DNA of 64,000 bases, from the NCBI GenBank assembly GCA_022785265.1, contig JALFQD010000409.1, positions 46,222 through 110,221 on the forward strand, in the 5' to 3' direction. The translations under genes and the position numbers were made by a program. The notes under the pieces were generated by a model, which saw only the letters and a list, made by a program, of their open reading frames with translations, was not told where the DNA came from and searched no databases. The number at the start of each line of letters is the position of its first letter. Position 1 is the first letter of the stretch. The DNA comes from Clostridium sp. Its GTDB lineage: Bacteria; Bacillota; Clostridia; Clostridiales; Clostridiaceae. Positions 46,800-47,059 of this stretch are shown piece after piece.

Positions 46800-47059
46800 A
46801 ATTAAAAGATTGGCTGTGTAATACTTTTCAAGTTGACCACTTGGGTTTTGGACTAATGTTCAAAGCTAACGAGGAACCCTAAACTTAAATATTAAGCATG
46901 GGAATCTCGTGGGAAGCTGCGCAAAGCGCAGAACCTGTATCGACTAGTCTCGAATCGGAGACGTAGGGTTGCTAATTGGTACGCAATTCGAAATGGTATC
47001 CTTGATATTTTTATCAAGTAAGAAATAGTCAGTGCTAATGGAAACATTAGATTATCACG
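46800..47059 (+). mobile_element. ORF-less group I intron in the gyrB-like gene
   Basis: 260 nt with no ORF. 5' exon ends in U (46799), intron ends in G (47059). R-like GTATCGACTAGTC and S-like AAGAAATAGTCAG can form P7. Further hairpins: gtctcgaatcggagac, cttgata/tatcaag, ctaatg/cattag. The spliced junction gives MMAADADPDGEAI (consensus [11 protein letters not shown]). Confidence 0.7.

What the first reader, a model, noticed from the sequence alone, without database searches (positions are those of the whole stretch)
46800..47059. ORF-less 260 nt group I intron inside the TOPRIM region of the gyrB-like gene
The GyrB-like reading frame stops 2 codons after YGKIMMAADA and resumes 260 nt later with DPDGEAIKNLLL. 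The intervening segment has no ORF and ends in G. The upstream exon ends in U. It also contains R-like (ATCGACTAGTC) and S-like (AAGAAATAGTCAG) elements and several hairpins. The spliced product matches the universal IMTDADVDG motif in length and sequence (IMMAADADPDG).
Basis: partly seen in the sequence, partly recalled or inferred. Interest (0 to 1): 0.55.

Follow-up and report, generated by a model that had tools for sequence, protein, structure and literature searches.

The report
Group I intron in phage gyrB
A 260-base intron of the self-splicing group I type, related to the phage T4 td intron, interrupts the catalytic TOPRIM motif of a phage gyrase-B-like gene; it is real and precisely bounded, but it is an ordinary kind of phage mobile element that the standard Rfam model misses.

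Summary
The GyrB-like frame stops at 46803-46805 and resumes at 47060. Joining 46799|47060 gives a 642-aa GyrB that aligns with E. coli GyrB across the junction without a gap. Two related IMG/VR phages (90-94% nt identity) lack exactly these 260 nt. A third carries a homologous 1,058-nt intron at the same site with a GIY-YIG homing-endonuclease ORF.

The insert folds into a complete group I core: P1 with U•G, P3/P7 pseudoknot, P4-P6, P7.1/P7.2, P8, P9.0, P9 and a terminal G. It belongs to a family with at least 105 distinct copies in IMG/VR. A sequence-only alignment of 26 members shows strong covariation. A covariance model built without the window hits 46819-47060 at 167 bits (E about 3e-55), and also hits the T4-type td intron.

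Rfam RF00028 finds nothing here, but it also misses td, so that negative result carries no weight.

This is a new member of a known kind, at a rare insertion site, and of modest interest.

Seen in passing and probably more unusual: a 5,007-nt group I intron in phoH (38243-43249) carrying about 4.7 kb of genes in its P8 loop, and reassignment of the TAG codon.

The parts
45279..46799 (+). gyrB-like exon 1 (507 codons; GHKL ATPase, transducer and first half of TOPRIM). Ends ...GAT GCT, with U at 46799.
46800..47059 (+). Group I intron, 260 nt, no ORF, inserted between codons (phase 0). In-frame TAA two codons in (46803-46805).
46797..46814 (+). P1. Exon GCU (46797-99) plus intron AAUU (46800-03) pair with the internal guide sequence GAUUGGC (46808-14). 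The splice-site pair is U46799•G46812. Possible P10: exon-2 GAUC (47060-63) with GAUU (46808-11).
   Evidence: The family's P1 covaries with each target exon (sequences). P10 is my inference from the sequence.
46821..46825 (+). P3 5' strand (AUACU). Pairs with 46995-46999 (GGUAU) and forms a pseudoknot with P7.
   Evidence: helix 2: 90.6% paired, 4 of 5 pairs with changes on both sides.
46829..46866 (+). Two extra hairpins between P3 and J3/4. I call them P3.1 (46829-46843) and P3.2 (46845-46866). J3/4 UAA follows at 46867-69. There is no P2.
   Evidence: helices 3 and 4: 98.9% and 95.5% paired, with many compensatory changes.
46870..46936 (+). P4-P6 domain. P4 46870-74/46905-09; J4/5 AA; P5 46877-79/46900-02; P5a 46884-96; J5/4 AA; P6 46911-13/46934-36; P6a hairpin 46917-31. 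P6a sits where relatives carry the endonuclease ORF.
   Evidence: helices 5 and 7; P6 covaries GGG/CCU to GCC/GGU, GAC/GUU
46942..46946 (+). Pairs with 47026-47030 UAGUC. This is the presumed guanosine-binding helix.
   Evidence: helix 10: invariant in 26/26; the same sequence is in td.
46947..46989 (+). P7.1 hairpin (46947-62), GUA, then P7.2 hairpin (46966-89, conserved loop UAAUUGGUAC). These are the peripheral elements typical of subgroup IA.
   Evidence: helices 11 and 12: 96.9% and 98.9% paired, every pair with compensatory changes.
46995..47025 (+). P3 3' strand (46995-99), P8 hairpin (47001-18), J8/7 UAAGAAA (47019-25).
   Evidence: P8 is poorly aligned by MAFFT; compensatory A-U to G-C change versus L071.
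47026..47059 (+). P7 3' strand UAGUC (47026-30), P9.0 (47032-34 with 47056-58), P9 hairpin with GAAA tetraloop (47035-50), terminal guanosine omega-G at 47059.
   Evidence: helices 15 and 16
47060..47467 (+). gyrB-like exon 2 (135 codons plus stop; rest of TOPRIM and the GyrB C-terminal domain). No start codon before codon 99. Overlaps the start of the gyrA-like gene (47442..49799).

Best explanation
Window 46800-47059 is an ORF-less group I intron of the phage IA2-like (T4 td / Twort) type. It sits between the codons for Ala507 and Asp508 of a phage gyrB-like gene, inside the catalytic DxD motif of the TOPRIM domain.

**Inferred mechanism (the standard group I pathway).** The gene is transcribed as one pre-mRNA. 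Ribosomes stop at the TAA two codons into the intron. The RNA folds into P1-P9. A free guanosine bound in P7 attacks the phosphate after U46799, which is held in P1 as a U•G pair with G46812 of the internal guide sequence. The terminal G47059 then takes the G site, and the freed 3'-OH of exon 1 attacks after G47059, possibly helped by a P10 pairing of GAUC with GAUU. This joins GCU|GAU and gives mRNA for a 642-aa GyrB-like subunit, which works with the GyrA-like subunit encoded downstream.

**Origin.** The intron is one copy of a large mobile family. A relative at the same site carries a GIY-YIG homing endonuclease in the P6 loop. The window copy has only a short P6a hairpin there, so it cannot mobilise itself. 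Its presence disrupts the endonuclease's presumed target site.

**Shown:** the boundaries, the fold, family membership, restoration of the ORF, and the existence of intron-less and endonuclease-bearing alleles.

**Inferred:** catalysis, the role of ribosome stalling, P10, and immunity to the endonuclease.
For: 1. **Exact boundaries.** L002 and L003 (94% and 90% nt identity over the flanks) are contiguous across the site.
2. **ORF restoration.** The joined product has DNA_gyraseB, Toprim, GyrB_C and HATPase_c domains. It aligns with E. coli GyrB 6rks_B through '...klrygkimmaadadpdgeaiknlll' with no gap.
3. **No independent translation of exon 2.** The exon-2 frame has an upstream stop at 47048, and its first ATG/GTG/TTG is at codon 99.
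4. **Complete group I secondary structure.** All 80 proposed pairs are canonical. The 5' exon ends in U paired to G, and the intron's 3' terminal base is G.
5. **Covariation.** On a MAFFT alignment not fitted to the structure (26 family members), 84.5% of cells are paired against 37-45% when partners are slid. The covariation score is 0.45 against 0.08-0.12, and 0/500 shuffles reach it. P3, P3.1, P3.2, P6, P7.1, P7.2, P9.0 and P9 all show compensatory changes.
6. **Family model.** Model R1, built from 14 relatives without the window, hits 46819-47060 full-length at 167 bits, E=3.3e-55. R1 also aligns the P7-P7.1-P7.2-P3'-P8-P7'-P9 domain of the T4-type td intron (30.8 bits, E about 1e-9 to 1e-10).
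7. **Same-site homologue.** L071 1674-2731 carries a GIY-YIG ORF (Pfam E=1.8e-14), which is intact if TAG is read as Gln.
8. **Independent recovery.** The identical intron is in independent SRA assemblies.
9. **The synonymous codon fits.** Intron-bearing alleles have GCT (U at -1) before the site; intron-less alleles have GCG or GCA.
Against: - There is no RNA evidence, so splicing is inferred.
- Rfam RF00028 gives no hit even at E<=10. The same model also misses td and other family members.
- Only 3 exon nucleotides pair with the guide sequence in P1, although 4 intron pairs extend the helix.
- There is no P2. Two hairpins lie between P3 and J3/4, which is not the textbook td/Twort layout.
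- P1, P6a and P8 could not be assessed for covariation because the sequence-only alignment misaligns these variable hairpins.
Confidence: 0.93

Rival explanations
1. Split gene. The insert is a spacer, and GyrB is made as two polypeptides that assemble, as T4 splits its topoisomerase large subunit into gp39 and gp60.
For: Exon 1 ends with a normal TAA. Gene callers on public contigs call only the 508-aa product. Split phage topoisomerase genes exist (papers listed: PMC2988022, 10.1101/2022.08.31.505936).
Against: The exon-2 frame has no ATG/GTG/TTG until codon 99, and I saw no purine-rich ribosome-binding site upstream of 47060 in the sequence. The cut falls inside the catalytic DxD motif. Close relatives have one continuous ORF. 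The spacer is a conserved, covarying group I fold.
Confidence: 0.02
2. Translational bypass. Ribosomes hop over the 260 nt, as in T4 gene 60.
For: The host gene family matches: gene 60 is also a topoisomerase subunit gene. A stop codon follows shortly after the break. Homologous bypass elements are reported as mobile (abstract of 10.1101/2022.08.31.505936).
Against: The gap is 260 nt, against the 50-nt gap of gene 60 (abstract listed). Reading the junctions, there is no matching take-off and landing codon pair: GCU or AAU before the stop...CAC G|GAU at the 3' end. The sequence belongs to a group I intron family.
Confidence: 0.01
3. Dead relic. It is a former group I intron that no longer splices, so this phage's gyrB is a pseudogene, or depends entirely on a trans-acting splicing factor.
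For: There is no homing endonuclease. P1 pairing with the exon is short. No RNA data exist. Rfam is silent.
Against: Every core helix is intact and canonical. The score against the family model is as high as for other members (167 bits here, 166 bits for the Lactococcus phage copy). Both exons and the downstream gyrA are intact ORFs. The identical allele is found in several samples.
Confidence: 0.04

Closest known systems
Phage T4 td intron (group IA2; I know it from the literature as experimentally self-splicing)
   Same: The 3' catalytic domain has the same order and near-identical strings...CGACUA-P7.1-(A)GUA-P7.2-GAAA(U/C)-P3'-P8-A(G/A)A(U/A)AUAGUC-P9. The family model R1 aligns to td at E about 1e-9 to 1e-10. 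Both sit in a conserved phage DNA-metabolism gene, and same-site relatives carry a GIY-YIG endonuclease in the P6 loop.
   Different: 260 nt and ORF-less, against about 1 kb with I-TevI. No P2. Two covarying hairpins lie between P3 and J3/4. The host gene and insertion site differ.
The same intron family at the gyrB 'KG|LGE(M/Q/L)' site, including Lactococcus phage P1048/AM1/LW81 (Audreyjarvisvirus) and IMG/VR phages
   Same: Same fold and conserved blocks. 60 of 105 distinct family hits are at that site. L002 and L003 carry one with a 290-aa GIY-YIG ORF. L071 carries both introns in one gyrB.
   Different: The window lacks the KG|LGE intron and has the rarer TOPRIM-site copy (2 of 105). In P1048 the gap is unannotated, between a 'hypothetical protein' CDS (N-terminal gyrB part) and a small hypothetical CDS, upstream of the annotated gyrA; R1 hits 166 bits there.
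Small ORF-less group I introns that are abundant in large gut phages (Jug phages; PMC12880540)
   Same: Short (about 206 nt on average) ORF-less introns interrupt essential phage genes. Splicing was confirmed by metatranscriptome reads for 37 of 76 predicted introns in that study.
   Different: Different phages and host genes (terL, nrdD). No sequence relationship was tested here.
T4 gene 39 / gene 60 split and the 50-nt translational bypass
   Same: It interrupts a phage type II topoisomerase large-subunit gene and is associated with mobile DNA.
   Different: Different mechanism. None of the bypass features I looked for is present, whereas the group I features are (see the membership test).

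Membership tests
Group I intron | 5' exon ends in U, paired with G of an internal guide sequence in P1 | tested here: met
   U46799•G46812. P1 is GCU|AAUU with GAUUGGC. In family members the guide sequence changes with the target exon (GGGU/GCCC, CGGU/GCCG, CAGGGU/GCCCUG; sequences).
Group I intron | Intron ends in G (omega-G) | tested here: met
   G47059. The boundary is fixed by the intron-less alleles.
Group I intron | Core helices P3-P9 in canonical order, with a P3/P7 pseudoknot and P4-P6 stack, supported by covariation | tested here: met
   (84.5% paired against about 40% for slid controls; compensatory changes in P3, P6, P9). P7 is invariant, so it is uninformative.
Group I intron | Precise excision restores the host reading frame at a conserved site | tested here: met
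Group I intron | Match to Rfam RF00028 at the gathering score | tested here: not met
   No hit at gathering or at E<=10. The control shows the test has no power here: RF00028 finds nothing at E<=1 in the T4-type td locus, the P1048 locus or L071. It reaches only 31.5 bits (gathering score 50) on another Enterococcus phage intron.
Group I intron | Guanosine-dependent self-splicing | not testable with these tools
   Needs in vitro transcription and GTP labelling, or RNA-seq.
Subgroup IA2 (T4 td / Twort type) | P7.1 and P7.2 inserted between P7 and the P3 3' strand | tested here: met
   helices 11 and 12: all 12 pairs have compensatory changes, 97-99% paired.
Subgroup IA2 (T4 td / Twort type) | Detectable homology to a proven IA2 intron | tested here: met
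   R1 against the td locus L138 2264-2476: 30.8 bits, E=2.5e-10 to 3.7e-9. The alignment covers P7 to P9.
Subgroup IA2 (T4 td / Twort type) | P2 between P1 and P3, and P3 directly followed by J3/4 (the td/Twort layout as I recall it) | tested here: not met
   The P3 5' strand follows P1 after 6 nt. Two covarying hairpins separate P3 from J3/4. P3.1 is a recognised optional element (PMC3873408).
Subgroup IA2 (T4 td / Twort type) | Best hit among subtype-specific covariance models (GISSD or the Selles Vidal 2025 set) | not testable with these tools
   These models are not available here (PMC11835236).
Autonomously mobile (homing) intron | Intron-encoded homing endonuclease | tested here: not met
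   No ORF in any frame. The same-site homologue L071 has a GIY-YIG ORF.
T4 gene 60-type translational bypass | Gap of about 50 nt with matched take-off and landing codons | tested here: not met
   The gap is 260 nt, and no matched codon flanks the junctions.
Intein | In-frame insertion encoding a Hint splicing domain | tested here: not met
   Stops in all frames.

The most novel reading that the evidence does not exclude
The family this intron belongs to has at least 105 distinct copies in IMG/VR, none detected by Rfam and none annotated in isolated phages. It may be an undescribed structural variant of IA2 introns: no P2, and a covarying P3.1/P3.2 pair inserted between P3 and J3/4. The TOPRIM copy may be a recent ectopic jump within gyrB from the common KG|LGE site. 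The ORF-less copy may persist because it makes the DxD site immune to the GIY-YIG endonuclease carried by co-infecting relatives such as L071. In that case it would act in competition between phages, not as a neutral passenger.
Probability: 0.25. Interest if true: 0.45.

Novelty: new member of a known kind. Interest (0 to 1): 0.3.

Why it matters
**For annotation.** This phage's gyrB is one 642-aa gene, not a truncated 508-aa product plus an orphan fragment. Public gene calls on 12 contigs list only the truncated product. The equivalent gene in Lactococcus phage P1048 is annotated as two hypothetical proteins.

**For method.** The curated Rfam group I model is blind to this large phage intron family, and even to T4 td in its genomic context. 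A 'no Rfam hit' should therefore not be read as 'no intron'.

**For biology.** The finding adds the TOPRIM DxD motif to the conserved sites targeted by phage homing elements. It also provides a natural series: an empty site, an intron with endonuclease, and an ORF-less intron. This series could be used to study the intron homing cycle in phages that reassign TAG.

None of this changes what is known about how group I introns work.

Tried and rejected
1. **Rfam RF00028.** I searched the whole window at the gathering threshold and 46600-47300 at E<=10 and found nothing. I first took this as evidence against an intron, then showed the model also misses td and the family.
2. **BLAST against 50,697 phage records.** The gene has no nucleotide match. 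The intron has one weak 114-nt match, to Enterococcus phage VRE9_3. The nearest GyrB proteins are below 40% identical.
3. **First P3 assignments.** I tried to pair the strand just upstream of J3/4 with the P8 region. I rejected this because that strand forms a local, covarying hairpin (P3.2), while the true P3 5' strand lies just after P1.
4. **Full-length covariance model (265 positions).** I trimmed to 231 positions and left the window sequence out.
5. **More same-site copies.** An exact 28-nt search found only L071.
6. **L071 endonuclease as a pseudogene.** I first read it that way because of two in-frame stops. I withdrew this: both are TAG, and one falls at the conserved Q of YIGQS.
7. 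**Promoter/terminator scan.** It showed no terminator in the intron, and only a chance-level promoter-like match.
8. **Literature.** Searches found no description of a group I intron in a phage gyrB or TOPRIM motif, nor in phoH. This is absence from the library searched only.

Full report
**1. The observation**

The + strand ORF 45279..46805 encodes the N-terminal 508 residues of a GyrB-like protein. It ends ...RYGKIMMAADAN followed by TAA. Translation from 47060 gives DPDGEAIKNLLLTLFWELCPELVINGH..., running to a stop at 47465-47467.

The 260 nt between them (46800-47059) have stops in all six frames.

Joining 46799 to 47060 gives a 642-aa protein with HATPase_c, DNA_gyraseB, Toprim and DNA_gyraseB_C domains. 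It aligns with E. coli GyrB (6rks_B, E=1e-125) straight through the junction: 'klrygkimmaadadpdgeaiknllltlf' over '[28 protein letters not shown]', with no gap.

**2. Natural alleles fix the boundaries**

A protein-guided scan of IMG/VR found two related phage contigs. These are L002 = UViG_3300045988_177309 and L003 = ..._175607. They are 94% and 90% identical to the window over about 3.5 kb upstream.

In both, window 46798 is followed directly by window 47060. They read ...GCAGATGCG|GATCCTGATGG... and ...GCGGATGCA|GATCCTGATGG.... The insert is therefore exactly 46800-47059 and is absent from close relatives.

A third contig, L071 (..._171548), has a 1,058-nt insert at the same site (1674-2731). 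Its first about 50 nt and last about 130 nt are nearly identical to the window's. It contains a GIY-YIG ORF in the P6 loop.

Intron-bearing alleles have GCT, with U at -1, before the site. Intron-less alleles have GCG or GCA.

The exact 508-aa truncated product occurs on 12 contigs assembled from different SRA runs. The three loci returned, from three different runs, carry an identical intron. This is not an assembly artefact.

**3. What it is**

I drew a full group I secondary structure in which every pair is canonical. In intron numbering, 1 = 46800.

| Element | Positions |
|---|---|
| P1 | exon GCU + AAUU with GAUUGGC; U-1•G13 |
| P3 | 22-26 / 196-200 |
| Two hairpins (P3.1, P3.2) | 30-44 and 46-67 |
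| J3/4 | UAA |
| P4 | 71-75 / 106-110 |
| P5 / P5a | flanked by AA and AA |
| P6 | 112-114 / 135-137 |
| P6a | 118-132 |
| P7 | 143-147 / 227-231 |
| P7.1 | 148-163 |
| P7.2 | 167-190 |
| P8 | 202-219 |
| J8/7 | UAAGAAA |
| P9.0 | 233-235 / 257-259 |
| P9 | 236-251, GAAA loop |
| omega-G | 260 |

The first four exon-2 bases (GAUC) can pair with GAUU, immediately 5' of the P1 part of the guide sequence. That would be a P10; it is my inference.

These give 105 distinct copies. Sixty sit at the gyrB 'KG|LGE(M/Q/L)' motif, two at the TOPRIM site (the window and L071) and 43 elsewhere.

*Covariation.* I aligned 26 compact members with MAFFT, by sequence only, and projected my structure onto the alignment.
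- 84.5% of cells are paired, against 37-45% when the 3' partners are slid by 1-3 columns.
- The covariation score is 0.45, against 0.08-0.12.
- 0/500 shuffles reach the observed values.
- P3, P3.1, P3.2, P6, P7.1, P7.2, P9.0 and P9 are 85-100% paired, with many double changes.
- P7 is invariant.
- P1, P6a and P8 vary in length and are misaligned, so they could not be judged.

*An independent family model.* A covariance model built from 14 members without the window, using an RNAalifold consensus structure, hits window 46819-47060 full-length at 167 bits, E=3.3e-55. The same model aligns the P7-P7.1-P7.2-P3'-P8-P7'-P9 domain of the td intron in a T4-type phage at E about 1e-9 to 1e-10. This ties the family to an intron I know from the literature to be experimentally self-splicing.

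**4. The Rfam negative**

RF00028 gives no hit on the window at the gathering score, or at E<=10 on 46600-47300. As a control I ran the same search at E<=1 on three loci: the td locus, the Lactococcus phage P1048 gyrB locus, and L071. There was no group I hit in any of them. On another Enterococcus phage intron the model reaches only 31.5 bits, against a gathering score of 50.

**5. How it most likely works**

*Shown:* the fold, the boundaries, restoration of the ORF and family membership.

*Inferred from established group I chemistry (reviewed in PMC3984707):*
- A free guanosine bound in P7 attacks after U46799, which is held in P1.
- The terminal G47059 replaces it in the G site.
- Exon 1 then attacks after G47059, joining GCU|GAU.

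The in-frame TAA two codons into the intron would stop ribosomes before they reach the core.

Independent translation of exon 2 is implausible. Its frame opens after a TAG at 47048 and has no ATG/GTG/TTG before codon 99.

A perfect sigma-70-type promoter (45216-45244) lies upstream of the gene. There is no terminator-like site in the intron.

Having no endonuclease ORF, the window copy cannot home by itself. Its relative in L071 probably can: the two apparent stops in that ORF are both TAG, one at the conserved Q of the GIY-YIG 'YIGQS' motif, and this phage group reassigns TAG (and section 8).

**6. Rivals**

- *Split gene with two polypeptides:* no start codon, the cut falls inside the DxD motif, and relatives are contiguous.
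- *Gene-60-type bypass:* the gap is 260 nt and there are no matched take-off and landing codons.
- *Dead relic:* every helix is intact, the score equals that of other members, and exons and the downstream gyrA are intact.
- *Intein:* there is no ORF.

Together I give these less than 0.1.

**7. Comparison with what is known, and novelty**

Group I introns in conserved phage DNA-metabolism genes are a textbook phenomenon (PMC3984707). More than half of viral group I introns are reported to be IA2 (PMC11835236). Hundreds of small ORF-less ones have been reported in gut jumbo phages, with metatranscriptomic support for splicing (PMC12880540).

This intron meets the group I definition on every feature testable here, and it has the IA hallmark P7.1/P7.2. 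It departs from td/Twort in lacking P2 and in having two hairpins between P3 and J3/4. P3.1 is a recognised optional element (PMC3873408).

I found no paper describing a group I intron in a phage gyrB or in the TOPRIM DxD motif. In Lactococcus phage P1048 the family's KG|LGE copy lies in an unannotated gap between two 'hypothetical protein' CDSs just upstream of the annotated gyrA.

Verdict: a new member of a known kind.

**8. Seen in passing**

*(a) A 5-kb intron in phoH.* A weak second hit of the family model (38393-38437) led to a second group I intron in the PIN-PhoH gene.
- Exon 1 ends ...ARLG at T38242, and exon 2 starts at 43250.
- Joining them restores 'LGFYPGT', collinear with PhoH structure 3b85_A.
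- The 5,007-nt intervening sequence has a P1 (CUUGGGU/GCUCAAG), a long-range P3, P7, P7.1, P7.2, AAGAUAUAGUC, P9 and a terminal G.
- Its two halves are joined by a long, about 23-bp P8 stem (38451-73 with 43182-205).
- The P8 loop is about 4.7 kb and carries about seven ORFs, including two radical-SAM proteins. No homing endonuclease is recognisable.
- Two close relatives share the arrangement.
- More than 70 of the 80 more distant relatives returned have a contiguous phoH.
- One relative, L217, has a 1.3-kb intron at the same site with a LAGLIDADG ORF in the P8 loop.
- In other phages the radical-SAM pair occurs without phoH flanks.
- A phage group I intron carrying a multi-gene, non-endonuclease cargo would be unusual, and it deserves its own follow-up.

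*(b) TAG reassignment.* The phage appears to reassign TAG.
- PIN-PhoH exon 1 has 5 in-frame TAGs.
- A tRNA with anticodon CUA lies at 22477-22551.
- None of 45 long + strand ORFs ends in TAG, and 15 contain internal TAGs.

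Noticed in passing
window 38243-43249 (exons: ...38242 and 43250...): A second group I intron, 5,007 nt long, splits the PIN-PhoH gene at the conserved LG|F(Y/L)PG motif. P1, P3, P7, P7.1 and P7.2 lie at 38243-38450. A P8 stem of about 23 bp pairs 38451-38473 with 43182-43205. J8/7, P7', P9 and the terminal G lie at 43206-43249. The P8 loop (about 4.7 kb, 38474-43181) carries about 7 ORFs, including two radical-SAM proteins, and no recognisable homing endonuclease. Two close relatives (L124, L125) share the arrangement. More than 70 of the 80 more distant relatives returned have an uninterrupted phoH. L217 has the same-site intron with only a LAGLIDADG ORF in the P8 loop. 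Whether it splices in cis or in trans is unknown.
   Followed up: partly
window 22477-22551; 37345-38244; whole window: TAG appears to be reassigned, probably to Gln. There is a suppressor-type tRNA with anticodon CUA. PIN-PhoH exon 1 has five in-frame TAGs. No long + strand ORF ends in TAG, and 15 of 45 contain internal TAGs. ORF lists made with table 11 therefore fragment several genes, for example 38500..39132 and 40154..41479.
   Followed up: partly
window 47277/47280; L002 4741-5940, L003 equivalent: Relatives L002 and L003 lack the TOPRIM intron. Instead they carry an intron of about 1.2 kb from the same family at the gyrB KG|LGEQ motif, with a 290-aa GIY-YIG ORF in the P6 loop. The window is intron-less at that site.
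   Followed up: partly
L071 1674-2731 and 2955-3213: One phage (IMGVR_UViG_3300045988_171548) has both gyrB introns. The TOPRIM-site copy has a GIY-YIG ORF in which the conserved Q of YIGQS is encoded by TAG, which directly supports TAG=Gln. The KG|LGEQ copy is ORF-less.
   Followed up: partly
L134 (Lactococcus phage P1048, MN552145.1 49276-49564): In an isolated Lactococcus phage, an intron of this family (R1 166 bits) lies in the unannotated gap between a 'hypothetical protein' CDS and a small hypothetical CDS, just upstream of the annotated gyrA; the two CDSs are presumably gyrB exons (their products were not checked). BLAST matches to AM1, AM2, AM3, AM8, AM9, AM11, AM12 and LW81 also fall where no feature is annotated.
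   Followed up: partly
L138 (T4-type phage td locus), L134, L071: Rfam 15 RF00028 gives no hit at E<=1 on the td intron in its genomic context, nor on ORF-less members of this phage intron family. Rfam-based intron screens of phage genomes will therefore under-count.
   Followed up: yes
window 38500-39129: The first cargo ORF of the phoH intron, read with TAG=Gln, is 210 aa. It has a Ser/Thr/Asn/Cys-rich repetitive C-terminal half, lies upstream of two radical-SAM genes, and has no Pfam or PHROG match. A modified-peptide cassette is one possibility; this was not tested.
   Followed up: no
window 45005-45029 and 45216-45244: A terminator-like hairpin followed by a perfect extended -10 sigma-70 promoter (TTGACA-17-TG-TATAAT) lies just upstream of gyrB. 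This suggests gyrB-gyrA is its own host-polymerase transcription unit.
   Followed up: no
L124/L205 and L218 (IMGVR_UViG_3300045988_175607, both contig ends): phoH exon 1 lies at the end of this 175,955-bp contig, while the intron cargo and exon 2 lie at its start. The contig looks like a circularly permuted genome whose assembly break falls at or just after phoH exon 1, near the start of the phoH intron.
   Followed up: no
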